Shown piece after piece: positions 15,460 to 55,892 of a stretch of DNA of 64,000 nt. Under the pieces are notes generated by a model, which saw only the letters and a list, made by a program, of their open reading frames with translations, ran no database searches and had not been told where the DNA came from. Source of the DNA: a virus; IMG/VR virus record IMGVR_UViG_3300046787_000438, positions 64,001-128,000 of that record; one strand, given 5' to 3'. The first letter of the stretch is position 1. Each line of letters begins with the position of its first letter. A program made the translations under genes and the position numbers.

Positions 15460-15547
15460 GGAAACGTGGCCGAGTGGCCTAAGGCGGCAGTCTTGAAAAC
15501 TGTTGGGTGTAATAGCCCCGTGGGTTCAAATCCTACCGTTTCCGCCA
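15460..15547 (+). tRNA. tRNA-Ser(UGA)
   Basis: GGAAACG/CGTTTCC acceptor, CT-TGA-AA loop, long variable arm, GTTCAAAT, encoded CCA. Confidence 0.93.
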
Positions 15548-15593
15548 ACAGGCAGAGAAACTGTCACGGAGGCATCTGTGGCAAGTCAAACCT

Positions 15594-15676
15594 GGAGCTA
15601 TAGTGTCAGTGGCAGCACGCGGAGGTCTGAATGCAGGGCATAATCCGAAGCCCTGGTTCGAATCCAGGTAGCTCAT
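15594..15676 (+). ncRNA. tRNA-like element with expanded (~20 nt) anticodon loop
   Basis: GAGCTA/TAGCTC acceptor, GTGT/GCAC D stem, CGGA/TCCG stem, CCTGG-TTCGAAT-CCAGG T arm. Confidence 0.7.
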
Positions 15677-15679
15677 TTA

Positions 15680-15753
15680 CGAGACTTAGCTCAGCTGGTT
15701 AGAGCAGCGGACTCATAATCCGTCGGTCGTCGGTTCAAGTCCGACAGTCTCGA
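15680..15753 (+). tRNA. tRNA with CAU anticodon (Ile2/lysidine-type or elongator Met)
   Basis: CGAGACT/AGTCTCG acceptor, GCGGA-CTCATAA-TCCGT. Confidence 0.9.
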
Positions 15754-15754
15754 C

Positions 15755-15828
15755 TCTGCGATATCCTAATAGGTCAAGGAACCACTCTTATAAGGTGGAA
15801 TATCTGGGTTCAAGTCCCAGTCGCAGTA
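15755..15828 (+). tRNA. tRNA-Ile(UAU)
   Basis: CTGCGA/TCGCAG acceptor (1:72 mismatch), CCACT-CTTATAA-GGTGG, CTGGG-TTCAAGT-CCCAG. Confidence 0.8.
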
Positions 15829-15829
15829 C

Positions 15830-15906
15830 GCTCCTATATCCCAATCGGCAGAGGAAGTTGACTTAAAATCAATTCAGTGTGGGTTCGAGTCCCACTGGGA
15901 GTACCA
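15830..15906 (+). tRNA. tRNA-Leu(UAA), short variable arm
   Basis: GTTGA-CTTAAAA-TCAAT, T arm GTGGG-TTCGAGT-CCCAC, CCA. Confidence 0.9.
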
Positions 15907-15907
15907 A

Positions 15908-15980
15908 CCGTCTATGGCGCAACGGATAGCGCAGGAAGTTTCTACCTTCAAGGTTGTAGGTTCGAGTCCTACTAGGCGGA
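15908..15980 (+). tRNA. tRNA-Arg(UCU)
   Basis: CCGTCTA/TAGGCGG acceptor, TT-TCT-AC loop. Confidence 0.88.
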
Positions 15981-16004
15981 CTGTATAATAGAATAAAGAA
16001 GTAA

Positions 16005-16078
16005 GGTCCTGTGGCGCAGTTGGTTAGCGCGTCTCCCTGTCACGGAGAAGGTCGCCAGTTCAAGTCTGGTCAGGATCG
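16005..16078 (+). tRNA. tRNA-Asp(GUC)
   Basis: GGTCCTG/CAGGATC, TCTCC-CTGTCAC-GGAGA. Confidence 0.93.
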
Positions 16079-16084
16079 CGCGAA

Positions 16085-16249
16085 GCATAAGTCTGAATAA
16101 CTTATGTGGAGATAGGTGCATCCGAAAATTACGTTGTCTCAGCCGCGGAGTGAAAGTATTCAGACTCATGGACTCTGTGTTGAAGCGAAGACTAGGATGT
16201 ACAGCTAGTAGCAATAGTTTTCCTTAACCAAAAGGTGAGCATGACTAGC
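16085..16249 (+). ncRNA. Candidate structured ncRNA with kissing-loop pseudoknot
   Basis: Several nested stems plus 8-bp loop-loop complement (16092-16099 with 16157-16164); sits between two tRNAs. Confidence 0.6.
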
Positions 16250-16252
16250 AAC

Positions 16253-16328
16253 GCCACCTTAGCTCCAATGGTAGAGCGCCGCCTTTGTAACGCGGATGTT
16301 ATCGGTTCGAGTCCGATAGGTGGCTCCA
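16253..16328 (+). tRNA. tRNA-Thr(UGU)
   Basis: GCCACCT/AGGTGGC, TT-TGT-AA loop, CCA. Confidence 0.92.
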
Positions 16329-30903: not shown

Positions 30904-31139
30904 TAGTCTTCTTCTTTCTTGTTATTATTGTTAGTTGCTTTTGCTCCAAAGTAGCCACCGAGAATACCGATGATTCCACCGAGAGCTGTCTGTACTAGGG
31001 TCATAACATCTGATGAAACTTCTACTGGCTCTCTTGTTGTCTGAGTTTCGATTGCAGCAACCACGTAATCACCAACGATTGCAAATAGAATTGCAAGCAT
31101 TACGCCAGCTGCTAGAATCAGCATTGTTTTTTCTTTCAT
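30903..31139 (-). CDS. Small two-TM membrane protein (holin-like)
   Basis: Two TM segments, GGYFG, charged tail. Confidence 0.55.
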   Translation of the reverse strand: MKEKTMLILAAGVMLAILFAIVGDYVVAAIETQTTREPVEVSSDVMTLVQTALGGIIGILGGYFGAKATNNNNKKEED

Positions 31140-33055
31140 TACTTAATCTTTCTTGTTGAGGTATTTTCTGAGCGTCGTGAGCCGCCTGATGCGCCTCCGC
31201 CTCCGCCCGAGCTAGCTGCTGCTGAAGTTGCTGCGCCTGCTGCTCCTGTTGCTGCTGCGATAGCTGCGTTACCTGCAACAACTGCTGCAACAACTACCTT
31301 CTCTGACTCTTCACGAACCGCGGGTGCCATGTCAGCGCCAACGTTTGACATGAAGTTAATTGCATCAACGAGGGCTGCAGCACCTGGGATTGCTGCAAGC
31401 TCTGGAGAGATAACGATGTCATCGGCAGCAGCTGCAATATACAAAGCATCGAGTGCTTGCTCGTATGCTGCTGAGCCCTTCTCTGCTGTCTCGAAGGTTT
31501 CGAGTGCTGCATCCTTCAAGGCTTCTGCTTGCTTAGGTGATAGGTCAGTGGCTACAATCTCGGTGAGGTCGATCTTCGTTAGAAGTTCGGCGCTGATGAT
31601 TTCTGGAAGTTGTTCAGCAGAAGTAATCTCTTCTTCTTTTACAACTGGCGGTTCTGGTTCCACTGGTGTAGGCTCTGGAGTAGGTTCAGGTTCCACGGCT
31701 GGTGGTTCTGGTGCAACGACGGGAGGTTCAGGTGTCGGTTCAACAACAGGTGGTTCAGGTACTACTACTGGCGGTTCTGGTTCCGCTGGTACCGTTGGTT
31801 CTGGTGTTGGCGCTACTGGTGGCTCTGGAGTGGGAGTCGGTGCTGGTGTTGGCTCTGGTTGCGGTTCTGGCGACGGACTTGGTGCTGGAGGCAAAGTTGG
31901 CTCTGGCTGTGGAGTCGGAGTCGGAGTCGGGGTTGGAGTAGGAGTAGGTTCTGGTACTACAACTGGTGGAACTGTAGGGGTAGGTTCTGGAGTTGGAGTA
32001 GGTACTGGCACTGGTTCATATGCAACTACAAATATAAGAACTTTAACTGTGCCACCTGCTGGATCGCCGTAAATGTTTGACGACTCAATTGTTACAGAAG
32101 TCTGCCCACTAGCTAACTGAGTTAGTTGTGATGAAACTTCAACGCCTCGGGATCCATCATTAGGGTCACCATACCAAGCAGTAATGCTCAAGATACGTTG
32201 ACCTTCAGGAGCTACTACTTGAACACTTGAGCCCTCTCCTAGAAGTGTTGCGCCTTCAGGAATATACGGAGCTGAGATAGGTGGAACAGTTGGTTCAGGT
32301 GTTGGCTCTGGAGTTACTACAGGTTCTGGTGTTACAACTGGTTCAGGAGTAGGAGTAGTGGTAGGAGTAGGCTCTACAGTTGGAGTCGGGGTTGGGGTCG
32401 GGTCAACTGTGGGTGCTGGGGTTGGTTCTAGTGTCGGTTCAGGTGTTGGCACAACGGGTTCTGGTGTTAGCACGGGCGGAGTCTCGACCTGAATGACACC
32501 ATATTCTTCCAGAGTAACTACCTGACCACTAGTTAAAGTAACGCCAGTTCTTGTCTGACCTTCATAGGTGGGTCCAACAATTGAATAGGAGATAGCAACT
32601 GTTCCATCAACATTGATTGCGGCAACAATGTTAATGTTTGTCGGTTCTGTGGCGTTTTGTAGCCAGATAGGTCTGGCGGATATGTCTACTTGGAATCCGC
32701 CATCAGAGGCTGCAATAGTTAAGTGTTCGTCTGCTCGCGCCCAAGGGAACACAACCCAGTCCATCGAGTAGAGCGAGATCGACGGGGTTTGCGGGTAAGT
32801 CCAGTATGTTCCATCGGGACGTCCGAAGGTAATTACAGAGTTTGTTGTAGCAAAAACGTCAGTGTATTGAACTCCGTCAAAAGTTACAGTGGTTGTCAGA
32901 GGGATCTGATACGAAGAATCATCTCCACCAGGTGTAGTTACTACTACCACTACGGGCTCTACTATGCTATCATCTGCAAAAGCAGTGGTTGCAGCTAGTA
33001 AAGGCCACCCTAGCGCTAACATTAAACTAAGGTATAGTCTGAAATATTTACGCAT
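31139..33055 (-). CDS. Secreted/membrane-anchored Pro/Thr/Glu-rich surface protein
   Basis: Signal peptide, two long (PT/PE)n linkers, Ala-rich C-terminus. Confidence 0.75.
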   Translation of the reverse strand: MRKYFRLYLSLMLALGWPLLAATTAFADDSIVEPVVVVVTTPGGDDSSYQIPLTTTVTFDGVQYTDVFATTNSVITFGRPDGTYWTYPQTPSISLYSMDWVVFPWARADEHLTIAASDGGFQVDISARPIWLQNATEPTNINIVAAINVDGTVAISYSIVGPTYEGQTRTGVTLTSGQVVTLEEYGVIQVETPPVLTPEPVVPTPEPTLEPTPAPTVDPTPTPTPTVEPTPTTTPTPEPVVTPEPVVTPEPTPEPTVPPISAPYIPEGATLLGEGSSVQVVAPEGQRILSITAWYGDPNDGSRGVEVSSQLTQLASGQTSVTIESSNIYGDPAGGTVKVLIFVVAYEPVPVPTPTPEPTPTVPPVVVPEPTPTPTPTPTPTPQPEPTLPPAPSPSPEPQPEPTPAPTPTPEPPVAPTPEPTVPAEPEPPVVVPEPPVVEPTPEPPVVAPEPPAVEPEPTPEPTPVEPEPPVVKEEEITSAEQLPEIISAELLTKIDLTEIVATDLSPKQAEALKDAALETFETAEKGSAAYEQALDALYIAAAADDIVISPELAAIPGAAALVDAINFMSNVGADMAPAVREESEKVVVAAVVAGNAAIAAATGAAGAATSAAASSGGGGGASGGSRRSENTSTRKIK

Positions 33056-33056
33056 A

Positions 33057-33359
33057 TTACTTGTCCCCTAACTCTTCAGCGTTCTTTAGGCGGACAACCT
33101 GAGAGAAAATAGCGTTAACTTCGTCCTGATCGATCTTTCCATCTTCAAGAAATGCGAGTGCAAGTTTCTCTACAACCTTGGCTACCGCTAGTAATCCTCC
33201 AAGGGATGCGGACAGCCAGACGTCGATACCAATAATAGATCCAGCACCGATAACGGATAGGGCAGACGCGATAAACGTAGCTATAACTCTGTACGAGATG
33301 TCAAGAGTTAGCTTGGCTTTTTTGGTTTTGCTTTTAGGCTTTGATTTAGTGCTAGACAC
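33057..33359 (-). CDS. Two-TM membrane protein (holin-like)
   Basis: Hydrophobic helices, DGKID..E.N tail. Confidence 0.55.
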   Translation of the reverse strand: MSSTKSKPKSKTKKAKLTLDISYRVIATFIASALSVIGAGSIIGIDVWLSASLGGLLAVAKVVEKLALAFLEDGKIDQDEVNAIFSQVVRLKNAEELGDK

Positions 33360-33414
33360 TAGAGGCTCCTGTGTGCTGGATGGCCTCTCCCTGTAACTAT
33401 TTTACCAGAAATGC

Positions 33415-33570
33415 TTGTAAATGACTGTGATTGGGTATATACTGTAAGTGGTTCATTAAGTGCTCCAATCCATTTTGTGAACTCCTTTCTATTGTGTGCG
33501 GAAAGGCGGTCCAGGAACTTTAGGGTTTATTCATTCCCCTTCTTTCCGCCTGGGCCGCCTTTCTATTTTT
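33415..33570 (+). ncRNA. Candidate small RNA with own promoter and terminator carrying anti-RBS/anti-AUG sequence
   Basis: TTGTAA-17-TATACT (33415-33443); 15-bp stem 33501-33515/33549-33563 plus T run; 33470-33494 complementary to early-gene leaders. Confidence 0.65.
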
Positions 33571-33925
33571 GGGGGTATACTCTAAAACTATGGATGAAGA
33601 GTATGAAATAGAGGTTCCTATTGAGCGGGAGCCTGTCGAGGGCTACGCTACCCCTAGTGACATCCAAAGGATTAGAGCTGAGTTCCTATCTGAATGGCTT
33701 AAGAGATGGGAAGGTATCTATATCTCTGAACGTAAGATACTTGAAGTATTTGGGGCTATGGGAATGACTATTGAGCTAGATGATCGTAATGGGGCTACTG
33801 CAATGGAAGCTCTTAAATACCTTGACTATGAGATAGATTCTGATAGTATCGATCCTATAAGCTTGGCTAGATATAAAATTAGCCGAGACAAAAAGAAGTA
33901 CTAGGAAAGAATAAAAGGAGAGAAC

Positions 33926-34216
33926 ATGACGACTTCAGTTCCAGCTATAGCTCTACTACTTGGCACTCTTGAAAAGGGCTACGTACTAGACATCTATGTT
34001 GAAGGCGAAGACAAGCGAGCCTACGATGGCGGCTTGAATAAGGATGAAATAATTCACGTTGCGGAAGACGGAATTATCTATAGGACCGATGCGGACAATG
34101 AAGTAGTCTACATCCCTATGTCACGAATCAATCACCTGTCAGTGAATAAGATGTTTGACTTTGAAAATGATATTGACTTTATTGATGTAAAAAACAAAAG
34201 AGAGGTTAGCTTCTAA
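33926..34216 (+). CDS. Hypothetical protein
   Basis: AAGGAG RBS. Confidence 0.6.
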   Translation: MTTSVPAIALLLGTLEKGYVLDIYVEGEDKRAYDGGLNKDEIIHVAEDGIIYRTDADNEVVYIPMSRINHLSVNKMFDFENDIDFIDVKNKREVSF

Positions 34217-34670
34217 TGACTATTGACTGGAGTTGGTGGGCGTTCGTTGCTGGAGTACTGGCAACGCTAACCGTTGAGTTCTGGGTAGTAATTGCTATTG
34301 CTTGGAAGCAGTGGAAGAAGCAGCAGAAGAAGGCTACGTCATTCGCTGATGACTGGACTGTAGATAGAATGTTCGGTTCAGGTAATAAGTAAAGCTTGAT
34401 ACCCTTGCCATGTGTTAGCATGTTATTATGACAAGCTTTCAGGTGGCCCTAATAACCCTCGCTGCCCTTTGGGTAGTGGGGGTTGTTTCTTTTATGCTAT
34501 GGCTAACCTTTAAGGTCATCCCTAAGATCCATAATGAGTTGGATGAGATGGGTATGAGTGAGGGCGAAAAGCGTAAGACGCTAACTAAGGTTGCCTATCC
34601 ACCTAGGTTCTTTAAGTAATACTTAATACTTAATACTTGACAAATAAACGTAATGCTGTACTATTGAAGT

Positions 34671-43609: not shown

Positions 43610-43796
43610 TTACACATAGAAAGGGGTTCCAAATGTATGGTTTGGACTTGACAGACCCAATGGTTAAGAAGGCTTACCAATTGGGATTTAACGATGGCCT
43701 GACCTGCGCGGTAGATAACGCGAAGGAGTTCGAGTACATCGACGAAGAGCAGGCAGATGACCTGCTTACTGAACTAGTAGAGATTGAGGCCTAGTC

Positions 43797-44279: not shown

Positions 44280-44740
44280 AAGCGGCATGCGGCGAGCGCG
44301 TTCCAAATCAAGGGCGTGCGCTCGTTGTATGCTACTATCATGCGCTCACTAGAAGTACACCTGTTCGAAACCGACTCTGACCTAGACTCTGCTATCGCTA
44401 GCGGAGCTGTACTACCAGAGCAACTCATCCGAACCGTATGCATCGATTGCCAAGGACCAGTAGGTTTTGCTGGACTGGAGTTCGAACCCTTCGTTGTAGT
44501 CATAGACGAGAATGACCAAGACTGGTTAGCATGCACCGATTGCGCAAAAGCTATCCTCAACTACGTGGACACATTCTTTCCGCCAGTCACAAAAAGTCAC
44601 TTCGCTCATCACCTCACAGATGACGAAGAATTCGACGCCTTCTAACTGTATTTATTTTTTGTCCAACACGCCGTAGTTCGTGTTGCGTAATGTTATACCC
44701 TTTGCTATAGTTGGATTACCAATAGAAAGGGGTTTCCCAA

Positions 44741-45259
44741 ATGGGAATGGATGTTTATGGCAAGAACCCAGTAAATGAAACTGGGCAATACTTCCGCCGA
44801 AATGTGTGGGGCTGGCATCCTCTATGGGGTTATGTGGAAGACACTTACCCAGAGATTGCCGAACTGGTCGAACACGCACACAGCAACGATGGCGATGGCT
44901 TGGGTGCGAGAAATGCTAAGAAGTTAGCGAAACTTTTGATGAGCGATTACGAAACTGGCAAAGCCAAGGAGTATGTCGAGGAACGCAACAAGGCTATTTC
45001 AGAGTTGCCTTTTGATGAGTGCCGTCTATGTGCTGGCACAGGTATTCGCACAGACGAGATTGCGGTAAATGCTGGTATGCCAACTCAAGAGTTGCGACCA
45101 GACATTGCGATTATCGTTGGTCGAACTCACGGAACTTGTAATGCTTGTAGTGGCCTAGGTAAGACAGAGCCTTGGGCAAGCAACTACTACCTAGAGCCAG
45201 ACGACATAAAAGAGTTTGCCGAGTTCCTAGTGAACTCTGGTGGATTTGAGATTTGCTAG
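44741..45259 (+). CDS. Early phage protein with DnaJ-type CxxCxGxG zinc motifs
   Basis: CRLCAGTG ... CNACSGLG; AGAAAGGGG RBS. Confidence 0.65.
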   Translation: MGMDVYGKNPVNETGQYFRRNVWGWHPLWGYVEDTYPEIAELVEHAHSNDGDGLGARNAKKLAKLLMSDYETGKAKEYVEERNKAISELPFDECRLCAGTGIRTDEIAVNAGMPTQELRPDIAIIVGRTHGTCNACSGLGKTEPWASNYYLEPDDIKEFAEFLVNSGGFEIC

Positions 45260-45466
45260 ACCCTGACTAAAAGTCAAACACCTGAGCCAAGTGTCTAAAC
45301 TGGCTCATCTTTTTGATTGGAAGTTGTATTTATTTTTTGTCTACCCCCGAGGGGCGACACGCCGAAAAAGATTTTCATAGATAGATTTGACATTCCGTAA
45401 AAAGTTTGCTTTACTTTACTTACTGACCAAAAGGGCAGACACGACACACGAAAGGGGCTAGTCGAA

Positions 45467-46081
45467 ATGACTACCACAGCAACAGCAACACCAAAGATTG
45501 TAGGCAACGCACTCTACCTAGAGTTGGTTGGCGACACTACTATGCCCGAGGACAAACTACGCCAAATGCTCGGGTGGCAACACAAGGGAACTAAGCAGGT
45601 TCTCATGTTCCCCGAGTATCAGGACGACATGGGCAAGACCCACAGCGCAGTCATTATGACCAGAGTTATCACAGAGAACTCCCCACGCGCTCAATGGGAC
45701 ATGAACTACATGGCTCGCAATCGTCCGAAGCCACAGTTGGCAGATAACGATTCTTACTACGCCAACTACCCAGAATACAGCAACGCCGAGTGGGACGCAC
45801 TAACAAGTCGTGAGCAGTTTGAGGCTCGTAAGCGTGCCATAGCAATCCTGCTCAAGAATGTAGTGCTTGACACTTACTACTCCGAGCCAGACGCAGAGGG
45901 CAATCGCACAACGCTCGCAGGGCAGGGTTGGGTTGTTCGTGAGGGAAAACCAATCGCAGTTGAGATTACTGACCAAGACATGACAGAACTTCACAGCGAC
46001 AGCAAAACTCCACAGGCAGTTATTCGCCGAATCAACAAAGTTCGCACGACACTTGACAAGTTCCCAGCAAAACTTGTATAG
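45467..46081 (+). CDS. Hypothetical early protein
   Basis: GAAAGGGG RBS, 204 aa. Confidence 0.7.
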   Translation: MTTTATATPKIVGNALYLELVGDTTMPEDKLRQMLGWQHKGTKQVLMFPEYQDDMGKTHSAVIMTRVITENSPRAQWDMNYMARNRPKPQLADNDSYYANYPEYSNAEWDALTSREQFEARKRAIAILLKNVVLDTYYSEPDAEGNRTTLAGQGWVVREGKPIAVEITDQDMTELHSDSKTPQAVIRRINKVRTTLDKFPAKLV

Positions 46082-46125
46082 TTTCTAATAGATACACACG
46101 ACACGACACGAAAGGGGCGAAAGCC

Positions 46126-47190
46126 ATGTATCAGCAAAAAGTAGTAGCAGAACACACGAACCCAGACCTAGCAGGATTGGACTTCGACAAACTGGCAGAG
46201 GCGGTTTCTAGCGCAGTATCAAGCAAGGCGTTTGGAATCACAACTTCGGTGATTGACGACTTGCTAACTCCAGCAGGACGAGCAACTATCAGAGTAAAGA
46301 CAGGGGCAAAGCCTACTTCACCTATCTCACTTGATTCTCTTGTAGAATCGAAAGAGGAAAAGGCAGAGGTAAGCATGGAACTTGGTGAAACACTTGAGGG
46401 CGCAGAATCATACGCTCGTCCAAATGGCGACTTGTATTATGGTCGCAAGTGGGGCGAAAATGTAGATGTCGAAGTTCTACGCAAAGCACGAGAAGCAGGT
46501 GCTTATGTCATGTTGTATGGAGTCCCTGGAACTGGTAAGACCGCTATGGTCGAAGCCGCTTTTCCAGATGAACTTTACACAATCTTGGGTTCGGGCGACA
46601 CAGAGGTTTCTGACTTGGTGGGTGGCTATGTCCAGACCCCGAGTGGCGGTTTTGAGTGGGTGGACGGAGTTTTGACTCGTTCGGCACTTGAGGGCAAAGT
46701 TCTACTGATTGACGAGATTGGTCTGATTGACCCAAAGGTTCTTTCGGTGGTCTATGGTCTAATGGACGGCAGACGAGAACTGACCATTAGCGCAAACCCA
46801 GAGCGAGGCACTATCAAAGCACAAGAGGGTTTTTATGTCGTGTCAGCGACTAACCCAAATGTCGCAGGTGTTCGCTTGTCAGAGGCACTTCTATCTCGCT
46901 TCGCCATTCAGGTCGAAATGACAACTGACTGGGCGTTGGCAAAGAAGTTGGGTGTTCCGCAGAGTGCCGTTGTCGCTTCACAGAACTTGGCAAAGAAAAT
47001 GGAGAATGGCGAAACTTCATGGTCGCCACAGTTCCGAGAGTTGCTTGCGTTCAGGGACTTGTCAAAGTTGTTCGGAACGAAGTGGGCGGTTCAGAACTTG
47101 CTCGCTTCTGCCCCAGAGATTGACAGACCAGTTGCGTCAGATGTATTCACCCGAGTATTCGGAGAGGCGATTCTGCCAGCCAAGATTTAG
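46126..47190 (+). CDS. MoxR/CbbQ/CobS-like AAA+ ATPase
   Basis: GVPGTGKT Walker A, DLVG, LLIDE Walker B, ATNP, ALLSRF. Confidence 0.9.
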   Translation: MYQQKVVAEHTNPDLAGLDFDKLAEAVSSAVSSKAFGITTSVIDDLLTPAGRATIRVKTGAKPTSPISLDSLVESKEEKAEVSMELGETLEGAESYARPNGDLYYGRKWGENVDVEVLRKAREAGAYVMLYGVPGTGKTAMVEAAFPDELYTILGSGDTEVSDLVGGYVQTPSGGFEWVDGVLTRSALEGKVLLIDEIGLIDPKVLSVVYGLMDGRRELTISANPERGTIKAQEGFYVVSATNPNVAGVRLSEALLSRFAIQVEMTTDWALAKKLGVPQSAVVASQNLAKKMENGETSWSPQFRELLAFRDLSKLFGTKWAVQNLLASAPEIDRPVASDVFTRVFGEAILPAKI

Positions 47191-47319
47191 TAGGTGGTCG
47201 TGTCCCTACTGAAACCCCGAGAGTAGCGCAAGAAAAATGTTTGCGAAAACACTTGCGCTACTCTCAAAAGGGTGTATAGTTAGACATACAACAACAAAGC
47301 CAGATGAAAGGGAAAGCAA

Positions 47320-49185
47320 ATGGCACACTACAGTTCTAAGGGAAAATCAAGACTTACCAAGCGCACTAGCGCAACTCCGTCAGAGTGGTATCGTGTTTGC
47401 TCACAGATTGGTCGTCTAGTAAACGACTGGTCATGGAGAAGCGACCTTGCCGTTTATGGTGGCGAGGATTCATGCGAGGGTCGTGCGATAGCAGGATACT
47501 ACGCCGAGATTGCCGAGATTGAGATAGATGTTCGCAAGGCGTTTGGAGAGGGCGTTAGCCCAGACTTCGTTGGCGACCTAAACGAAAAGGCAACTCGCTA
47601 CGAGTTCCCAATGGTTTCAGGAATCCTATTCCATGAGGCACTTCACGCTCGCCACACAGGCTGGGACACAGCCTACTTGTCAGAGCAGTTTGAGAACATA
47701 GAAGCACAGGCGTTCATGGCACTTGAGGAATCTCGTATCGAATCTCGTGGCGTGAAAGAGCGACCAGAGAATCGTTTGTTCCTACGCACTTCGGCGTTGG
47801 ACATGGCACTTGAGGGCGTAAACGAATCAGCACTCGCAAAACTTGGTGGCGACAAATGGATTACAGCGAATCTCGCAACTCTATCTATCGCACGAGTGGA
47901 CGCAGGTGTTCTTGAGGTTTCAGACATCAGCGAGATTTACAAAGAGGTTGTCAGCGTTCTTGGTCAAGACTTGTTTGACGAACTACGCAAAGTTTGGATT
48001 GCGTTTCAGGCACTAGGCGTTCCACAGATTGACGAGGCGATTGCGCTCGCTAAGAAGTGGGTCGAACTTTTGCGTGAGGCAGACCCAGAGGGCGAGCCAA
48101 ACAAGGACGAAGTTGGCGACCCATTCGCAGAGGAATCTGGCGAGGGTGAGGGCGAGGGCGAAAGCGAATCTGGCGAGGGCAAGGGCGAAATGTCAGAAGC
48201 CATGAAGCAGTTGGTTTCTAAACTTTCAGATTCAGCGAGCAAGACAGAAGCAAACGCAGAGCAAGCACTTGGCGACCAAGAGCGCAAAGAGAAGTGGGAC
48301 GAGGAATCAAAGGCACGCCAGAGCGAAGCGCAGAAAAACAATCAGCGCAAGCAGGAAGCCAAAAAGATTTTCGACAAGAGCCACAACGAAAGTGGTTCTG
48401 GTTCTAACTCACGAGTAAGCGAACGCCGAGTGCCAACTGGCGCAGAGCGAGCCAGCGCAGTCCAGATTGCTAAGGCGTTGGAAAAGGCGAAGTATCGTGA
48501 GCGTTCTGTCCATGTTCGCAAGCACCAAGCACCACAGGGTCGCTTGATTGCTCGCAACGCAGTCCAGAACAAGGCTATGGAATCTATGGGATTGCGTGGC
48601 GAGTTGCCAGCGTGGAAGTCAAAGACACGCAAGCACACAGACGACCCAACTCTCAAGATTGGTGTCATGGTGGACATCTCTGGTTCTATGGGTTCGGCTA
48701 TGGAATCTATGGGAACTACGGCTTGGGTTCTATCGGAAGCAGGTCGCCGAATCCAAGCGGAAACCGCTATGATTTACTACGGCTCGGGTGTCTTTTCAAC
48801 TCTACGCCGAGGTCAGCGATTGAGCGAGGTTTCTATCTACACCGCACCAGACGGAACGGAAAAGTTTGCCGAGGCGTGGGAAGCACTTGACGGCGAACTC
48901 GGATTGACTTTCACAGACGGCGTGCGTTTGTTGGTAATCGTGTCGGACGGAAACTACACACCGAAGCAGACCGAGAGTGCCAAGCAGATTCTCCAAGAGT
49001 GTAAACGGAACGGCGTGGCAGTCTTGTGGATTACCCCGAAAGATTGCTACTCGCTTGGGGCAAGGCACATCATCAACGGCTCGGGTTGGGGAATCCACTT
49101 GGATAACCTTGACACGAATGAGATTGCTTCACTTGTCGGCAAGACGGCAAGCGAAGCGTTGGGTAAGGTCGGCTCGCTCATGTGA
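47320..49185 (+). CDS. VWA domain protein with N-terminal HExxH and acidic linker (CobT-like AAA+ partner)
   Basis: HEALH, EESRIE, E/G-rich linker, MIDAS DISGSM...T...VSDG. Confidence 0.85.
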   Translation: MAHYSSKGKSRLTKRTSATPSEWYRVCSQIGRLVNDWSWRSDLAVYGGEDSCEGRAIAGYYAEIAEIEIDVRKAFGEGVSPDFVGDLNEKATRYEFPMVSGILFHEALHARHTGWDTAYLSEQFENIEAQAFMALEESRIESRGVKERPENRLFLRTSALDMALEGVNESALAKLGGDKWITANLATLSIARVDAGVLEVSDISEIYKEVVSVLGQDLFDELRKVWIAFQALGVPQIDEAIALAKKWVELLREADPEGEPNKDEVGDPFAEESGEGEGEGESESGEGKGEMSEAMKQLVSKLSDSASKTEANAEQALGDQERKEKWDEESKARQSEAQKNNQRKQEAKKIFDKSHNESGSGSNSRVSERRVPTGAERASAVQIAKALEKAKYRERSVHVRKHQAPQGRLIARNAVQNKAMESMGLRGELPAWKSKTRKHTDDPTLKIGVMVDISGSMGSAMESMGTTAWVLSEAGRRIQAETAMIYYGSGVFSTLRRGQRLSEVSIYTAPDGTEKFAEAWEALDGELGLTFTDGVRLLVIVSDGNYTPKQTESAKQILQECKRNGVAVLWITPKDCYSLGARHIINGSGWGIHLDNLDTNEIASLVGKTASEALGKVGSLM

Positions 49186-49553
49186 GTCCCTTGCCCTAAC
49201 GGAGTGCCTAACCGATTGGATTGAGCATAGTGCCAGACCCCCCTTACTGGTCGCTCTCCTAACGGACGGGACACTAGAAGCCCCTATCAACTCTTTCCCC
49301 CATTGGTTGGTAGGGGTTTCGCCATACCCAAGACGGATAGGTGCTTGCGTGGTATTAGCGTGCTAGGGATTGACGGCTCGTCAGAAGTTCTCGTGAAAAG
49401 CAGGTGACAGACTTTTCTGATTTTCGAGCCAGAGGTTGTATTTATTTTTTGTCGAAAACTTCGTATCTTGATTTGACATGACTAAAAAAGTCAGGTAAGT
49501 TTGGAACTACCAAACAGGGACGAACAAGAAGTAGTCCCAAAGGGGGTGTCAGA

Positions 49554-49892
49554 ATGGCAACAGCCACTAAGACCCAAGACCAGACCCAGACGAAAGTCTT
49601 GGTCAAAGTTTCACGCAAGTTCGTTGCTATGTTGGACGAACTCAAAGATGTTCGTGCTACTTACAATCAGGCAGACAAGCGTATTGCCGAACTGCGTAAG
49701 GACATCTTTGCCGTAGTTGGCGAACAAGCCCAGACTCTAACCCACAATGGGGTTGAGGTCGCCGTAATCGTTGCCCAGACCAAAGAGGTTGTGGACATGG
49801 ACTTGCTGAAAGCCAACTTCCCAGAGGTGTATCAGGCTTGCCTAGTGAGCAAGACCCAATACCCTATTCGTGCGGTATCTCGCTCGAAGTAG
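49554..49892 (+). CDS. Early protein, paralog of 57810..58154
   Basis: TLTHNGVE, DLLKANFPEVYQAC. Confidence 0.7.
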   Translation: MATATKTQDQTQTKVLVKVSRKFVAMLDELKDVRATYNQADKRIAELRKDIFAVVGEQAQTLTHNGVEVAVIVAQTKEVVDMDLLKANFPEVYQACLVSKTQYPIRAVSRSK

Positions 49893-50040
49893 TCGAGAGG
49901 GGCAGGGGGAAATCCTTGCCCCTTTTTTCTGAAGCGAGTATGTATTTATTTTTTGTCTGCGATTCCGACCCGCCGTCAAAAGTTGTGGCGAATGTCGCAA
50001 CGCCGTAGTAAGTTAGAACTATAAGAAAGGGGAGTTCACA

Positions 50041-50376
50041 ATGAGTGAGCCATTAGAACTACAAGACATAGCAGGACTTAGCCTGACGATTATTGGCGTG
50101 TTGATTGAGAGTTATGTGAACGAGGGATACGCCGACCCAACAATGTATAAGGCGTTGTCTGCGACTGCCGAACTAGCAGAGCAGTTTCAGGCACGAGCAA
50201 AGTATGACAACGCACCTAGCGATGTTGTCGAATCTATCGCCGACTTGCTAGTGAATCTCAAACTCACAGCGATTGAGTGCGGAGAAGTTGTAGAGCGAAT
50301 CATCAAAGAGCAGGGAATCGAAGTCAAGGGCGATTGGTCTGCCCACACTTGCGACGACCCAGAACACGACCACTAG
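50041..50376 (+). CDS. Hypothetical early protein
   Basis: AGAAAGGGGAG RBS. Confidence 0.65.
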   Translation: MSEPLELQDIAGLSLTIIGVLIESYVNEGYADPTMYKALSATAELAEQFQARAKYDNAPSDVVESIADLLVNLKLTAIECGEVVERIIKEQGIEVKGDWSAHTCDDPEHDH

Positions 50377-50385
50377 GAGAGAATC

Positions 50386-50688
50386 GTGAATCTAAACTTT
50401 AGAACTGCCCTCGGAGAAATCTTGCGAGAGAAGCGACACGAGTTAGGTCTGAACTTGCGTCAGGTTTCCAGCAAAGGTTTCGTGGCACTCGGATACTTGA
50501 GTGAAGTTGAGCGTGGACAGAAAGACGCTTCATCAGAAACTCTAGAAGCGATTGCTCAAGGCTTGGGCGTAGAAGTTTACGAACTTGTCGTAGAAGCAGG
50601 GTTGCGGATGGCAAATGCCCCAGACAGCCCAGAAAGTCTTTTCACTCGGAACGCCGATTGGTCAAAGCAATACGCCGACCTCTCATAG
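50386..50688 (+). CDS. XRE-family HTH regulator, ClgR-like
   Basis: GEILR..R...G..LR.VS....V.LGYLSEVERGQK.ASSE.L.AI. Confidence 0.85.
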   Translation: MNLNFRTALGEILREKRHELGLNLRQVSSKGFVALGYLSEVERGQKDASSETLEAIAQGLGVEVYELVVEAGLRMANAPDSPESLFTRNADWSKQYADLS

Positions 50689-50868
50689 CCCCGATAGCCA
50701 CAACTCAAAGCCCCTAAGCAGATTGCTTGGGGGTTTTGTTTTGCCCGATTATTTTGCGCCGTGCGTCTGTATTTATTTTTTGTCGCAGAGTTTTCGCCAC
50801 GAACGATTTTGGTTTGCCAAATGTCGGTAGCAGGGTATAGTATCGAACTATCAAAGAAAGGGGACAGA

Positions 50869-51123
50869 ATGTCCAGCAACTATCCAGAGGGGTCAATGCG
50901 TGGTTCGGGTATCTATGCCGAGGACTACACAGGAACTTTTTATTGCTCGGCTTGTGATGATGAATACTCGCTAGATGGAACTACTGACGATTGGGGCTAC
51001 AACGCTTCAGCCGAATGTCCAGACTGCGGTGCGACTTTGGAGGTAGAACTTCCAAGCCGAGAAGAACGAGATGAGGACGCTGATTACGATTCTTATCGTG
51101 ATAGCCAAATGGATTGGAACTAA
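50869..51123 (+). CDS. Zn-ribbon acidic early protein
   Basis: CSAC...CPDC; start set by RBS. Confidence 0.6.
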   Translation: MSSNYPEGSMRGSGIYAEDYTGTFYCSACDDEYSLDGTTDDWGYNASAECPDCGATLEVELPSREERDEDADYDSYRDSQMDWN

Positions 51124-51560
51124 AATGAGTCGTATCGCAAGAGAAAACCCAGAAGCAACATACGAAGAACTTTTTGATTTAGGACTGCGTGGAAGCGTGC
51201 GGGTCAGAGAGGGAGAGCAACTCCACCAATACGATTGCCGTCAATGCGGAGAGATTGTAATGGTAGACCAAGAGCAACACGAACGCTTACAGTATTTCCG
51301 TAGCCACCCAAAAGAGTTTGGGACTAGAACGCCAAAGTGCGGAGATTGTTGGGTGAACTAGCCCACCAAAGTCTTCCCCCGAATAATCAGGAACAGAGAT
51401 TCCGATTCGGGGGATTTTCTTTTGTCTGGTGCGTTTTTATTTTTTAGGTTTGGGTGTATTTATTTTTTGTCCAGCTTCGACACACGCTCGCGGGATTGGT
51501 TTGCGGTTTGCTAGCGCTCGCCGTATGATTAGATTGTTCACAAAAGGAAGGGGTTCCCAA

Positions 51561-51950
51561 ATGGGTTCACGAACAGAATGGATTATCAAGACGAACACTA
51601 GCGATAGTGCGCTTCACCTATACAGCCACTATGGTGGAGAGTCAAAGTTTGAGGATACACAGCAAGCGCTATTCAAGGCTCAGCCTCGCTGGAACGACAT
51701 TAGTTATGGCGCTCGTATCTTCACTAGCCAAATTATTGGCAACGATTGGGGCAGCGAAACTGGATTCGGCATTGCCATTGGTAATGACACAGACAACATG
51801 TTTGAGGAGAGTTACTTTCACGCCGTCATTGACTTTCCAAATCAGTTAGTTACTTTCGGTTCTATGACTTGGACTTTTGATGAGTTCGTGGTTGCCGACA
51901 ACTTTCAAGAGATTCTGGTTGAGGAGTATTGGGCAGAGGTGAGCGTCTAA
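51561..51950 (+). CDS. Phage protein (MG.R...LY.H..G type)
   Basis: AAGGGG RBS. Confidence 0.6.
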   Translation: MGSRTEWIIKTNTSDSALHLYSHYGGESKFEDTQQALFKAQPRWNDISYGARIFTSQIIGNDWGSETGFGIAIGNDTDNMFEESYFHAVIDFPNQLVTFGSMTWTFDEFVVADNFQEILVEEYWAEVSV

Positions 51951-52240
51951 TGGGCGCACTTCACGCTAACGCCATTGCCGCCGATACAGCGATTCCACTA
52001 GAGAAACAACTGGAGTGGCACTTACAAGGTAATCACTTTCCGCCGATTCCAAAATCTATGGTCATTCCATGCGAGGAAGCGATTCAGGCTTTCTGGGAAG
52101 ATGACTTAGAGAGGTTGATTAGTCTTCCAGATGGAGTTGGATACAAAGGTTTGACAGTTGCCCCTGCGAGGGCGATTATTATCGAACACCACCTAGACGC
52201 CTGGTGCGTTGAGTATGACGAAGAGGATTCAGACTTCTAG
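51950..52240 (+). CDS. Phage protein (HLQGNHFPP)
   Basis: TAATG coupling. Confidence 0.6.
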   Translation: MGALHANAIAADTAIPLEKQLEWHLQGNHFPPIPKSMVIPCEEAIQAFWEDDLERLISLPDGVGYKGLTVAPARAIIIEHHLDAWCVEYDEEDSDF

Positions 52241-52262
52241 TCAATAAGAGATAGACCCCGTC

Positions 52263-52370
52263 AGCGATTAGCATTGACGCTAATCGCTTTCGGCTTGCTA
52301 GGGTTTATCCCCCTTTTCCCTAGCATGCGGGTAGCAGATTCCCCCCTTTTCTGCTACCCGCTTTTCTTTT
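52263..52370 (+). ncRNA. Triple-hairpin element with C-rich loops ending in terminator
   Basis: Three perfect stems (10, 8, 12 bp); loops ATTGAC, TTTATCCCCCTTTT, TTCCCCCCTTT. Confidence 0.65.
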
Positions 52371-52518
52371 TGCCGTTTTGTTTTTCTTTTTTTTTGTTTT
52401 ACAAAGTGTATTTATTTTTTGTCTGTCAGATCAAAGCGCCGTTCGCAAAGGTGGAAAATGTCAGAGGATTTTAGTAAAGTTGTAGTAGTTGGAAGTTCCA
52501 ACAGATAAGGGGGCAGAG

Positions 52519-52881
52519 ATGCCAAAGACAGCAGTCATTGTGACTACCAAGGCGGAGGTCAGCATTATTGACATTGCCGAAGGTTCACTAAAGAAATTAC
52601 AAAGCGCCGTAGATGGCTTGATTCAGCCAATCGACCTAGACGCAAATGTGACTATGTGGGTGAACGAAGAGGGCTTGCTACGCAGTGACCTTGAGATGAA
52701 CGACATTGCCACAAGCCTTTACGCTCAAATGTATGACATCACTAACCCACTAATGGGAGATGTTGTCTTCACTGGTGGCACAGATGGAGAGGGCGAAACG
52801 CTCGGACTAGGCGACGACTATGTGAACGCAATCTACGCCCTAGTCGATAACTACAAACAGGTTATGTCGCAGTTCGCATAA
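52519..52881 (+). CDS. DUF3846-like protein
   Basis: LQSAVDGLIQ, MWVNEEG, N..AT, GDVVF.G. Confidence 0.7.
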   Translation: MPKTAVIVTTKAEVSIIDIAEGSLKKLQSAVDGLIQPIDLDANVTMWVNEEGLLRSDLEMNDIATSLYAQMYDITNPLMGDVVFTGGTDGEGETLGLGDDYVNAIYALVDNYKQVMSQFA

Positions 52882-53057
52882 CTAACAAAGACACAGCCCC
52901 TCGCAGAAATGCGGGGGGTTTCTTTTTACCCTAAACAAAAACTTTACGCGCTCGCGGGGTGTATTTATTTTTTGTCAAGCTGCCGTATTATGCGCCGTGA
53001 AAAGTTTGCGCTTGTCAGAGGTTGGTGGTAGGTTTGGAACAAGGAAAGGGGACAGAG

Positions 53058-54111
53058 ATGTCAATGCTAAAGACTAAGAACTACAACGCAGAGTTTGCGT
53101 TCGAGCAAGTCATTCGCCTAGTAGGTGGCGCAAGCGAGTATGGCGACAGCACCAAGGCTAGTATCTGGGCAGAGTGCCACAACAACGAAACTATCGAGAT
53201 GTTGGCGGGTATGTATCTGGTTGGTTCATCAGAGCGTGCGGAACGCAACCTTGCTCGTCTAAACGATAAGTTGCGACAGGTATTCGGTATCTAATGGCTA
53301 TGACTTATCAAGAGCGTAAAGCCAAGGGCTTGCGACAGCGTGCGGAGTATCGTAATCGTCTACACCACGCAGAACACCTTGCCGTAATGTTTCGTGGGTT
53401 CGGTATTGGATTTAGTTTTATTACAGTAATGACAGCCGTTGCTGGAGTTCACGGAACTTTAGCGATTGCGTTGTTCATTATGTTTATGTTGATTGCTGGT
53501 TCAGGTTTTATTGGCGCAGAACACATTATGTTTTGGGCAGAGCAAAGCCGTTATCCAAAGAGTCGCCGTAGAACTTTACGAAGCGAGTTCGCAGATGAGT
53601 GGCGTAGATTTAGACAGTACCGAAAAGTAGAAAAGGGTTAGAAGTGAAAATGGTAACGATAGGTGACTCGGTTGCCTCGCTAGAAGTTAGAAATAACGCA
53701 GACAATACTGGACTAGAACTAGAAGTTTGGGTCACTAAGCGTGTTGGCTCGTTCTATGCTCTATTGGGCTACGGAGTATTCGGAGTGCCATTAGGCATGA
53801 GTGAAGTAGATTTCTACACAGATACCCTATACCCGATTATGAAGAGCGCACCCCTCACCACAAGTCAGCCAAGCCGAATGGCGTTGGATTTTGATGGCTC
53901 TATGAAAAGAGCAGAGGCACACATAATCAGCCATAGAAACAACCACCCATTCTCAAATAAAACTCGGTCTGTATCCCCTGAAGAGGGCTTAGCAAAAATG
54001 CTAGGCGCAGGGGCAAAATACTTGACTATTTTGGCGGAGATAAATGGAGTTACGCCACGCACTATGGAAACTATGCGTAAGAGGTCAAAAGAGTATTACG
54101 CAAAACAATAA
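53058..54111 (+). other. Cassette of three hypothetical genes (53058-53294, 53294-53641 membrane, 53644-54111)
   Basis: RBS and coupled junctions. Confidence 0.6.
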
Positions 54112-54313
54112 GAGTTAGCCCCCCACTAACAAAAGCCCCCATTATGTTCATTCATAGTGGGGGTTTTGTTTTGCTCGAAGCGTTTTGTGTTTTTTTACAC
54201 TCGCCGTGTATTTATTTTTTGTCTATATGTGGGGCAACTTTTTACGGAGCGCCGTAAGATGTTTGATTTATTTGGTTTATAGGATACGATTGAACTACAT
54301 AGAAGGGGAGCAA

Positions 54314-55000
54314 ATGCTAGTAAACAACAAAATGATGTCTTATAGGACTACACCGACTGAAAAATTGCTGGGCACAGTAAACAAGTATGCCGTGATTGGC
54401 TACCTAGAGGGAATAAAGACTTTAGTTTCAGATAGCGAAACACTAATCAAGGCGCAGGAGCAGAAGTTCACTGACGCAATAGTAAAAGCGGAGGCGCAAG
54501 TTTCTGAGTGGGAAGCCGAGTATATTCAACTACATACAAAGGCATTGCGAGCAGAACTTAAGCGTAAACTCGAAGCACCGACCAGCGCTACTCATTGGCT
54601 GAGTGCCGAGGAGATTCGTCTGCCTATCAGAGATGAAGTAATCTCTAACGAGATTGCTGAACTTTTAAAGCGCCGCCCTGATTATCGAACTTATCAGATT
54701 GCTAGGGGAGATGTCGGAGCGCCTCATGACATTCAGTATTCTAGAGCGTGGAGCAAAGGCAATAAGACTTTGGTAGGTATAAATAGACTCACCACGCGCC
54801 GTGTGGAGCAGTGGCAAGCCTCACTAGATAGTCTGATTTCTGACCTAAAGGATAGAAACAAGCAAGAAGTTTACATAGCGCAGGTTATGGAACTCAAGCG
54901 CACCACAGCAACTATTCTTGCGAACTGGGGTATAGATACCACCAAGACTGAGCGCAAGGACAGGGATAAACCAAAGCCACGAAGCAAAACTAAAAAGTAA
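54314..55000 (+). CDS. Hypothetical early protein
   Basis: GAAGGGGAG RBS. Confidence 0.6.
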   Translation: MLVNNKMMSYRTTPTEKLLGTVNKYAVIGYLEGIKTLVSDSETLIKAQEQKFTDAIVKAEAQVSEWEAEYIQLHTKALRAELKRKLEAPTSATHWLSAEEIRLPIRDEVISNEIAELLKRRPDYRTYQIARGDVGAPHDIQYSRAWSKGNKTLVGINRLTTRRVEQWQASLDSLISDLKDRNKQEVYIAQVMELKRTTATILANWGIDTTKTERKDRDKPKPRSKTKK

Positions 55001-55163
55001 CAACCAAAGACCCAAGCCCCGCTAGATTTCTGGCGGGGTTTCTTTTTATCGTGCTATTCGTGTATTTATTTTTTGTCTGAAGCCCGCCGCAACTTTTGAT
55101 GAGAGTTGCGAAGTGTCACAGACCTAGGGTAAGATTTAAGTATCAAAGAAAGGGGAAGCGATT

Positions 55164-55892
55164 ATGGCAAAGCCAAGCGTTTCAGCAGTAAAAGAATGGG
55201 ACACAGTTTACGAGAGTGACCTAGTCGAACTCGCAGTAGGGACAGCAGTATTTGCCGAGGACTACTGGCGTATGACGAATGTTGTTACTGGCAAGAAGAA
55301 GTATTTCTATGGCGAACTTGCGTGGGCAGATTCACGCCGAGAAGCAAGCGACCTAGACTTTGAGGCGTGGAACGTATGAACGAGTTGAAGCGTTGCCCAA
55401 AGTGCGCTGGACACATTCCGAACAACAAGACCCCTGGGGCATACCCTGGTGCGATTTCACGCCGAGACAACACGACAGAGATTTGTTCAGCGTGCGGAAC
55501 AATGGAAGCGCTGGAAGATTTCTTTGAGCGTGAAAAGGTTGGTGCGTAATGGCAACAACCTTAGAGCAGACAACTTGCTACAAGTGCGAAGCCGAGATTG
55601 AGGCAGAGGTTGGGCAGGTTCACCCTTTGTGTTCAGAGTGCCAAGACGATTTCGATAGTTGGTTCAATAGCCAGTTAGGAATGTTCAAGTGAGCAAGCAA
55701 GTATTTTTTGTTATTGGCGTTGATTTAGATGACAAAGAGGTTTTTATCGCAGATGACACTTATTCAGCGCGGTTCAGCGAAGACGAGCAAGTCTGGGACA
55801 CCGACATAAACGAATGGGTTGAAGATGAAGATAGGAAACACTATCTTGACGCATTAGACCTTTTGAACAATAAAAAGTTAGCAAGAGATTAG
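55164..55892 (+). other. Cassette of four small genes, including two Zn-finger mini-proteins
   Basis: 55164-55379, ~55376-55549 (CPKC..CSAC), ~55549-55692, 55689-55892. Confidence 0.55.

What the first reader, a model, noticed from the sequence alone, without database searches (positions are those of the whole stretch)
33415..33570. Stand-alone ~120-nt sRNA that is antisense to early-gene translation starts
It has its own promoter and a 15-bp terminator stem. Segment 33470-33494 (CCATTTTGTGAACTCCTTTCTATTG) pairs with the leader of the first cassette gene (44720-44744, CAATAGAAAGGGGTTTCCCAAATGG) at 21/25 Watson-Crick plus 2 G-U positions, covering SD and AUG. It has an 11-nt perfect core (TTGTGAACTCC) to the 50041 leader and also fits the leader at ~43612-43635. 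The terminator loop carries a second CAT+CCCCTT element. The targets lie 10-17 kb away, so action would be in trans.
Basis: partly seen in the sequence, partly recalled or inferred. Interest (0 to 1): 0.85.

Follow-up and report, generated by a model that had tools for sequence, protein, structure and literature searches.

The report
Conserved actinophage small RNA with anti-Shine-Dalgarno seed
A large uncultured phage of Actinobacteria and a handful of relatives keep a roughly 120-base non-coding RNA gene whose exposed middle copies the ribosome's mRNA-docking tail, and in this phage it matches the start sites of three putative early genes, so it probably damps their translation, though nobody has yet seen the RNA or tested this.

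Summary
At 33415-33570 (+) there is a promoter (TTGTAA-17-TATACT), about 121 nt of non-coding sequence, and a 16-bp hairpin followed by a T run. The quoted complementarities are exact.

Homologues occur in 8 other uncultured phage or metagenome contigs, about 6 distinct lineages. All share four features:
- a TAnnnT -10 element;
- one or more 5' hairpins;
- a predicted single-stranded CUCCUUUCU, which is the 16S rRNA 3' tail;
- a terminator with compensatory changes.

All terminator wobbles are G·U on the + strand. That argues for + strand RNA and against the minus-strand RBS/MDWST reading.

The element is single-copy per genome. It is absent from Rfam and from 55 other related loci. The host is inferred to be an actinobacterium, from two WhiB genes and the nearest relatives.

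Their predicted net pairing energies are -19 to -27 kcal/mol, against -6.7±4.0 for 223 starts. That extended pairing is not seen in the relative G001. Only the 9-nt anti-SD core is conserved.

Verdict: a real new sRNA family. Trans repression of strong-SD (putative early) genes is plausible but untested, because no expression data were available. This scan has already noted similar anti-SD sRNA candidates in other phages.

The parts
33399..33407 (-). Extended -10 (TGGTAAAAT) of the leftward holin-like gene 33359-33057. It lies back to back with the sRNA promoter.
   Evidence: TGnTAAAAT is conserved at this place in window, L003, L005-L009 and L011. It lies downstream, in the minus sense, of the MDWST mini-ORF.
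33415..33443 (+). sRNA promoter, TTGTAA-17-TATACT
   Evidence: The T, A and last T of the -10 (TAnnnT) are invariant in 9 homologues, and a conserved G lies 6 nt downstream.
33450..33570 (+). Predicted ~121-nt non-coding RNA
   Evidence: Homologues are 89-127 nt. Covariance model R1 scores members 55-80 bits.
33450..33483 (+). 5' hairpin (GGUUCAU.../...GUGAACU); it holds the CAU that would face a target AUG
   Evidence: An equivalent hairpin is predicted in L006 and L194, with U-A to U·G and G·U to G-C changes.
33482..33499 (+). Seed: CUCCUUUCU (33482-33490), identical to the 16S rRNA 3' tail, plus AUUGUGUGC. Predicted single-stranded.
   Evidence: Unpaired probability is 0.9-1.0 for 7 of the 9 bases here, and above 0.55 for positions 2-9 of the motif (only 0.19-0.49 at position 2 in several homologues) in all 9 homologues. 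The 9-mer is invariant in all homologues, including those found without using it.
33500..33570 (+). Intrinsic terminator: stem 33500-33515 / 33549-33564, 33-nt loop, T run 33566-33570
   Evidence: The helix is 97% paired across 9 sequences, 4 pairs show changes on both sides, and 0 of 500 shuffles reach its covariation score. All wobbles are G·U on the + strand.
33576..33592 (+). TATACT -10 followed 8 nt later by the ATG of gene 33590-33904. This is probably a separate, near-leaderless transcript.
   Evidence: Read from the sequence. The L195 orthologue has its own TTGACA-17-TATGTT promoter and starts 6 nt after it.
43611..43640 (+). Predicted target 1: leader, SD and AUG of a 53-aa gene
   Evidence: Duplex -34.1 kcal/mol. 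Net cofold energy -27.2, against a mean of -6.7±4.0.
44720..44744 (+). Predicted target 2: leader, SD and AUG of the 172-aa first cassette gene
   Evidence: 21 WC + 2 G·U of 25 positions. Duplex -32.0; net cofold -18.9.
51537..51566 (+).
   Evidence: Duplex -35.4, the best in the genome. Net cofold -26.6.
50027..50043 (+). Weaker predicted target: 11-nt perfect match in the 50041 leader
   Evidence: -24.1; -14.5. Its G001 orthologue (52% aa identity) is among that genome's best duplex hits.

Best explanation
An independently transcribed, intrinsically terminated, ~121-nt non-coding RNA of a 152-kb actinobacteriophage. It sits at the head of the rightward gene block. It folds into a 5' hairpin, an open linker and a terminator hairpin. 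The linker carries CUCCUUUCU, the same letters as the 3' tail of 16S rRNA. It can therefore pair with any long Shine-Dalgarno sequence of the AGAAAGGRG type.

The inferred mechanism has three parts:
- The RNA acts in trans, without need of Hfq (which Actinobacteria lack).
- It pairs with the SD, and in this phage through the AUG, of promoter-headed cassette genes 10-18 kb to the right. The strongest candidates are the genes starting at 43633, 44741 and 51561.
- This keeps 30S subunits off and lowers translation of those genes.

What is shown is the gene's anatomy, its conservation, its strand, and the unusual complementarity. Expression, repression and timing are inferred.
For: Anatomy: promoter, fold with z = -5.8.

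Conservation: homologues occur in L005, L006 and L003 (found through the neighbouring protein) and in L188, L194, L195, L199 and L203.

Architecture: all 9 share the same layout, with the 9-mer predicted unpaired.

Terminator: covariation is seen, and wobbles are G·U only on the + strand.

Independence from neighbours:
- In 6 homologues a separate TTGACA promoter follows the terminator.
- In L194 the unit lies after a + strand gene end, so it is not tied to the divergent gene.

Distribution: single copy per genome, with clear score separation from chance hits.

Coding: no conserved ORF on either strand.

Targets:
- Three outlier leaders in the genome scan.
- The flank-shuffle test gives 0 of 60.
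- Net cofold energies are 3-5 SD beyond the mean of 223 starts.
- With the 16-nt seed, 10 of 38 genes in 43-58.6 kb reach <= -12 kcal/mol, against 7 of 185 elsewhere. Fisher p = 5e-5.

Host: inferred actinobacterial from two WhiB genes and the closest ATPase relatives (PMC10611076).

16S tail: GAUCACCUCCUUUCU is documented in PMC6288834.
Against: In the complete relative G001 the best leader pairings are no better than with shuffled flanks. No dominant target appears there or in G002. The G001 orthologue of 44741 lacks extended pairing.

Five homologues were found with a pattern that required the 9-mer, so their conservation of it is partly by ascertainment.

The sRNA promoter is of the same host-type class as the target promoters, which gives no obvious temporal logic.

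Related phages with 82-98% identical neighbouring genes lack the element, so it is dispensable.
Confidence: 0.5

Rival explanations
1. General 16S-tail mimic. The RNA is real, but its conserved job is not tied to particular phage genes. It competes with ribosomes for all long SD sequences, phage or host. That would shift translation towards leaderless or weak-SD messages. Alternatively it serves as a decoy for a factor that recognises or cleaves the 16S 3' tail.
For: Only the 9-nt core is conserved. L006 and L194 even match CCUCCUUUCUA over 11 nt. There is no conserved extended target in G001 or G002. Neighbouring phage genes appear leaderless (33590; L004, L012, L195), so SD-independent translation exists in this system.
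Against: In this genome the flanks add pairing well beyond the core to three paralogous leaders. A single sRNA would need very high abundance to compete with ribosomes globally. The host genome is unknown, so host targets could not be scored.
Confidence: 0.17
2. Cis element. The unit is a promoter-proximal terminator (attenuator or insulator) that sets how much transcription from the divergent promoter region enters the rightward genes. On this view the pyrimidine tract has no trans role.
For: In window and L005 the next gene starts 20 nt after the T run, with no -35 element between. An alternative 8-bp pairing, GCGGAAAG (33498-33505) with CUUUCCGC (33542-33549), competes with the terminator stem in this lineage. 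L011 has a non-homologous promoter-terminator unit at the same place.
Against: Six homologues have a strong separate promoter right after the terminator. No conserved antiterminator exists, and the alternative pairing lies in a lineage-specific loop insertion. It does not explain an invariant, unpaired 9-mer.
Confidence: 0.12
3. Minus-strand reading. The bases are a leader with RBS and a tiny ORF (MDWST), or the relic of an inverted gene start. The + strand promoter and terminator would then be coincidental.
For: The reverse complement is a perfect SD-spacer-ATG, and it is a fourth copy of the leader family of 43633, 44741 and 51561. An ATG lies 3-12 nt after the SD in every homologue.
Against: The mini-ORFs are 2, 2, 5, 5, 6, 17 and 21 codons long with unrelated peptides. 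The leftward gene's conserved promoter lies downstream of it. L194 has no leftward gene next to it. Every stem wobble would be an A·C mismatch on the minus strand; its fold is 9 kcal/mol weaker. No T run follows on the minus strand.
Confidence: 0.04
4. A real small RNA with another, unrelated role. Examples are RNA polymerase or RNase binding, or acting on host mRNAs through the 5' hairpin. Actinophages express abundant ncRNAs of unknown function.
For: Abundant unexplained ncRNAs are reported for phages WC1, D29 and Kampy (PMC10986025). The element is patchy among close relatives.
Against: The only invariant unpaired stretch is the anti-SD 9-mer. There is no match to 6S, Ms1, 6C or any Rfam family.
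Confidence: 0.12

Closest known systems
c4 antisense RNA of phages P1 and P7 (review PMC12197685)
   Same: A phage-encoded small RNA that pairs in trans with the ribosome-binding region of the phage's own mRNA and blocks translation. Its pairing stretches are displayed in unpaired parts of a folded RNA.
   Different: c4 is cut from the same operon transcript as its target and serves prophage immunity (own knowledge). Its seeds are specific, not a 16S-tail copy. Here the RNA has its own promoter and terminator, the predicted targets are several and lie 10-18 kb away, and the host is actinobacterial.
RegA translational repressor of phage T4 (review PMC3014915)
   Same: Functional analogue: one phage product aimed at the translation initiation regions of many early messages.
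   Different: RegA is a protein. No sequence or structural relation exists.
6C / B11 sRNA of Actinobacteria (PMC10470900), and the UCCC-motif sRNAs of Firmicutes such as LhrC and RsaE (own knowledge)
   Same: Hfq-independent sRNAs whose unpaired pyrimidine-rich motifs pair with purine-rich SD regions of several mRNAs.
   Different: Those are host-encoded and show C-rich loops in hairpins. Here a linear linker carries CUCCUUUCU. There is no Rfam match to 6C or any other family.
Abundant non-coding RNAs of actinophages WC1, D29 and Kampy (PMC10986025, PMC5712189)
   Same: Short, promoter-proximal non-coding transcripts in actinophage genomes, of unknown function.
   Different: Those were seen by RNA-seq but have no proposed seed. 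Homology to this element was not tested. A search of 50,697 phage records with this region found nothing.

Membership tests
Stand-alone trans-acting base-pairing sRNA gene | Own promoter at a fixed distance from a conserved 5' end | tested here: met
   TAnnnT is invariant, with a conserved G 6 nt downstream, in 9 homologues. Sequence evidence only.
Stand-alone trans-acting base-pairing sRNA gene | Intrinsic terminator kept by compensatory change | tested here: met
   97% paired, 4 pairs with double changes, 0 of 500 shuffles. A T run follows in all complete copies.
Stand-alone trans-acting base-pairing sRNA gene | Non-coding: no conserved ORF on either strand | tested here: met
   Minus-strand mini-ORFs are 2-21 codons and unrelated. 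+ strand ORFs are absent or not shared.
Stand-alone trans-acting base-pairing sRNA gene | Accessible conserved seed with complementary mRNA sites | tested here: met
   unpaired probabilities; targets. Extended pairing is not conserved in G001.
Stand-alone trans-acting base-pairing sRNA gene | The transcript exists and changes target expression | not testable with these tools
The host is uncultured.
Any described RNA family (Rfam 15) | Score at or above a family's gathering threshold | tested here: not met
   (only tRNAs in the window). In one search the best hit is 17.9 bits against thresholds of 42-88.
P1/P7 c4-type antisense RNA | Processed from the same transcript that carries its target sites | tested here: not met
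   The element has its own promoter and terminator, and the predicted targets lie 10-18 kb away behind their own promoters.
Cis-antisense RNA (P22 sar, lambda OOP type) | Overlaps a functional gene or leader on the opposite strand | tested here: not met
   The opposite strand holds only non-conserved mini-ORFs, upstream of the leftward promoter.
Transcription attenuator / leader | The downstream gene depends on read-through, and a conserved alternative antiterminator fold exists | tested here: inconclusive
   Six homologues have a separate promoter after the terminator. Window and L005 have only a -10 element. No conserved alternative fold was found.

The most novel reading that the evidence does not exclude
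The RNA is a deliberate copy of the 16S rRNA 3' tail, used by the phage as a translation-mode switch. By soaking up long Shine-Dalgarno sites it would silence SD-led messages (its own cassette genes and strong-SD host genes). Leaderless messages, which this phage and its actinobacterial host use widely, would keep being translated. A rarer variant of this reading: it is a decoy substrate for host toxins that cut the 16S anti-SD tail.
Probability: 0.12. Interest if true: 0.8.

Novelty: new member of a known kind. Interest (0 to 1): 0.5.

Why it matters
Few phage-encoded trans-acting RNAs that block ribosome-binding sites have been described, and none that I found for actinophages. In those phages abundant non-coding RNAs have been seen but remain unexplained. 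This element gives a concrete, conserved candidate with a clear seed and three named targets, so a simple reporter test is possible. This scan has also noted similar anti-SD small RNAs in unrelated phages (unchecked notes). Taken together, they suggest that RNA-based control of SD-dependent translation may be a common, overlooked layer of phage gene regulation.

Tried and rejected
- Known phages: blastn of 33000-34300 against 50,697 phage records gave no match.
- Rfam: nothing at gathering or permissive thresholds.
- Neighbour and target proteins: PHROGs and Pfam gave nothing, apart from a weak holin/'nuclease' family for the 100-aa leftward gene.
- Loose hairpin pattern in viral contigs: mostly chance hits in GC-rich DNA, so it was not used.
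- Tighter hairpin pattern without the seed: it returned only the known family members, plus unrelated phage terminators with the same stem. No seed-less member was found.
- Prokaryote genomes: only chance hits, at <=39 bits with model R1. There is therefore no prophage copy and no host clue.
- Conserved target: this failed. In G001 the pairing is not better than with shuffled flanks. There is no dominant target in G001 or G002. L005's contig does not reach the cassette region.
- Degenerate-cassette idea: rejected. A gene-less cassette would carry the SD in sense on the transcribed strand, with the promoter upstream and the terminator downstream. The order here is wrong for the minus strand.
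- + strand 66-codon ORF 33411-33611: rejected. It starts upstream of the promoter, runs through the terminator and is not conserved.

Full report
**Setting**

The window is bases 64001-128000 of a 152,411-bp IMG/VR phage genome with direct terminal repeats.

The host is inferred to be an actinobacterium, on three grounds:
- The phage carries two WhiB-family genes, a family that the control genomes show only in Corynebacterium.
- Its AAA ATPase is closest to that of the metagenome-assembled Actinomycetia phage DSL-LC01 (70%), and then to Microbacterium and Gordonia phages.
- PMC10611076 predicts an actinobacterial host for DSL-LC01.

The finding lies in a 230-bp gap between a leftward 100-aa holin-like gene (33359-33057) and a rightward 104-aa gene (33590-33904).

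**Observation**

- TTGTAA-17-TATACT lies at 33415-33443.
- RNA from about 33450 to 33570 folds at -44.6 kcal/mol (z = -5.8). The fold is a 5' hairpin (33450-33483), a 16-nt open linker (33484-33499) and a 16-pair hairpin (33500-33515 / 33549-33564) followed by TATTTTT.
- The 25-nt pairing with 44720-44744 is 21 Watson-Crick pairs, 2 G·U pairs and 2 mismatches.
- The 11-nt perfect match to the 50041 leader is correct.

**Is the element real, and which strand matters?**

Using the leftward protein as a handle, I fetched 58 related loci.
- The element is present in L005/L002 (95% identical), and in diverged form in L006 and L003.
- A pattern scan of metagenomes added L188, L194, L195, L199 and L203.

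That gives nine sequences in about six lineages, and all share the same plan:
- a -10 element whose T, A and last T are invariant, with a conserved G six bases on;
- one or two 5' hairpins;
- CUCCUUUCU predicted unpaired;
- a hairpin followed by a T run.

The terminator helix is 97% paired. Four of its pairs change on both sides, and its covariation score is above all 500 shuffles and all slid controls. Every wobble in it is G·U on the + strand, which would be an A·C mismatch on the minus strand. The minus-strand fold is 9 kcal/mol weaker.

Three further points argue against the minus-strand reading:
- The leftward gene has its own conserved extended -10 (TGnTAAAAT, 33407-33399). It lies downstream of the MDWST mini-ORF in the minus sense.
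- The mini-ORFs in the relatives are 2 to 21 codons long and unrelated.
- In L194 the unit follows the end of a + strand gene, so it is not tied to a leftward gene at all.

In six homologues a separate TTGACA-type promoter follows the terminator. In the window the next gene has a TATACT 8 nt before its ATG, and its L195 orthologue is leaderless behind its own promoter. I therefore read the unit as a stand-alone + strand RNA gene.

A covariance model gives these results:
- one copy each in G000, G001 and G002;
- none in 55 other related loci;
- members at 55-80 bits, against <=39 bits for chance pattern hits;
- nothing in prokaryote genomes.

Rfam has no match.

**The seed**

The only invariant unpaired stretch is CUCCUUUCU. 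L006 and L194 read CCUCCUUUCUA. This is the 3' tail of 16S rRNA in many bacteria (GAUCACCUCCUUUCU, PMC6288834). That Actinobacteria share it is from my own knowledge.

Five homologues were found with a pattern that required this 9-mer, so their agreement is partly by ascertainment. The four IMG/VR members were found without it, and a hairpin-only pattern returned no seed-less member.

**Targets in this genome**

A duplex scan of the 35-nt seed region against every 36-nt window of both strands gives three outliers. All are translation starts:
- 51534 (-35.4 kcal/mol);
- 43611 (-34.1);
- 44715 (-32.0).

The next best hit is -26.2.

With the core kept and the flanks shuffled, the best hit averages -27.8±2.1, and none of 60 shuffles reaches -35.4.

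Co-folding the whole RNA with 60-nt start regions charges for opening the 5' hairpin. Net energies are -27.2 (43633), -26.6 (51561) and -18.9 (44741), against -6.7±4.0 for 223 starts.

The three leaders are paralogous to each other (families D10 and D19). The seed region is in effect an inverted fourth copy of them.

Using only the 16-nt open linker, 10 of 38 genes between 43 and 58.6 kb reach -12 kcal/mol or better, against 7 of 185 elsewhere (Fisher p = 5e-5). That block holds 14 cassettes, each headed by the 17-mer TGTATTTATTTTTTGTC, a promoter and mostly an AAAGGGG ribosome-binding site. The target proteins have no known family.

**Limits**

- In the complete relative G001 the best leader pairings are ordinary for the seed composition, and no target dominates.
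- The G001 orthologue of 44741 is not an extended match.
- The orthologue of 50041 (52% identical) is among G001's best duplex hits.
- The extended pairing therefore looks lineage-specific, and only the anti-SD core is conserved.
- The loop's 'second element' is confined to window and L005.
- Close relatives lack the element altogether (L004 at 98% and L007-L010 at 82% identity in the neighbouring protein). L011 has a non-homologous promoter-terminator unit at the same place.
- No expression data could be obtained.

**Mechanism**

The best-supported reading is a trans-acting, Hfq-independent sRNA. Its open CUCCUUUCU pairs with long SD sequences, and in this phage the pairing extends through the AUG of three cassette genes. 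That would hide them from 30S subunits.

I put about 0.85 on the RNA gene being real and about 0.5 on this mechanism. The rivals are:
- a general 16S-tail mimic;
- a cis attenuator or insulator;
- an unrelated RNA role;
- the minus-strand leader reading.

**Comparison and novelty**

It works like the c4 RNA of P1/P7 (PMC12197685) and is a functional analogue of T4 RegA (PMC3014915). It is not a member of either, nor of 6C/B11 or any Rfam family.

Actinophages are known to make abundant unexplained ncRNAs (PMC10986025).

Earlier unchecked notes from this scan describe similar anti-SD sRNA candidates in at least eight other phages. The kind is therefore recurrent in the scan, though not established in the literature. 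I class it as a new family within a known kind of regulator.

Noticed in passing
window 44647-57701: Fourteen exact copies of the 17-mer TGTATTTATTTTTTGTC. Each lies ahead of a promoter-like site and a leader with mostly an AAAGGGG ribosome-binding site, and most follow a T-rich terminator tail.
   Followed up: partly
window 33576-33592; L004, L012-L014, L195: Several genes start 6-8 nt after a TAnnnT -10 element with no Shine-Dalgarno sequence. These are probably leaderless messages, as is common in Actinobacteria.
   Followed up: no
L011, reverse complement of ~2230-2470: At the same position between the same divergent genes, this relative has a different, non-homologous promoter-to-terminator unit of about 120 nt, without the anti-SD 9-mer.
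   Followed up: no
L235, L236/L239, L240, L242/L246: Unrelated phage contigs end genes with a terminator whose stem is almost the same (GAAAGCGGTCCAGG ... CCTGGGCCGCTTTT, with the same U·G wobble). The stem is therefore a recurring terminator module, not specific to this RNA.
   Followed up: no
G000:C1:21296-21487 and 60943-61161 (outside the window): Two WhiB-family genes score above the Pfam cut-off. This is a hallmark of actinobacteriophages.
   Followed up: partly
window 15460-16328: A cluster of seven tRNA genes: Ser, Met, Ile, Leu, Arg, Asp and Thr.
   Followed up: no
window 31139-33055 (-): A 638-aa protein with a signal-like N-terminus and very long Pro/Thr/Glu-rich linkers, directly downstream of the holin-like gene.
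   Followed up: no
G001:C1:1-110 (L206): The relative's genome begins with tandem GGGAAGTAAGGT repeats. These gave a spurious top 'target' in the co-fold ranking.
   Followed up: no
L181, L182, L187, L196, L197, L204 (human-gut contigs): The same search pattern hits a terminator followed on the other strand by AGAAAGGAGG and an ATG of a real gene. This is an ordinary layout that mimics the element's letters and shows how the minus-strand reading could arise by chance elsewhere.
   Followed up: partly
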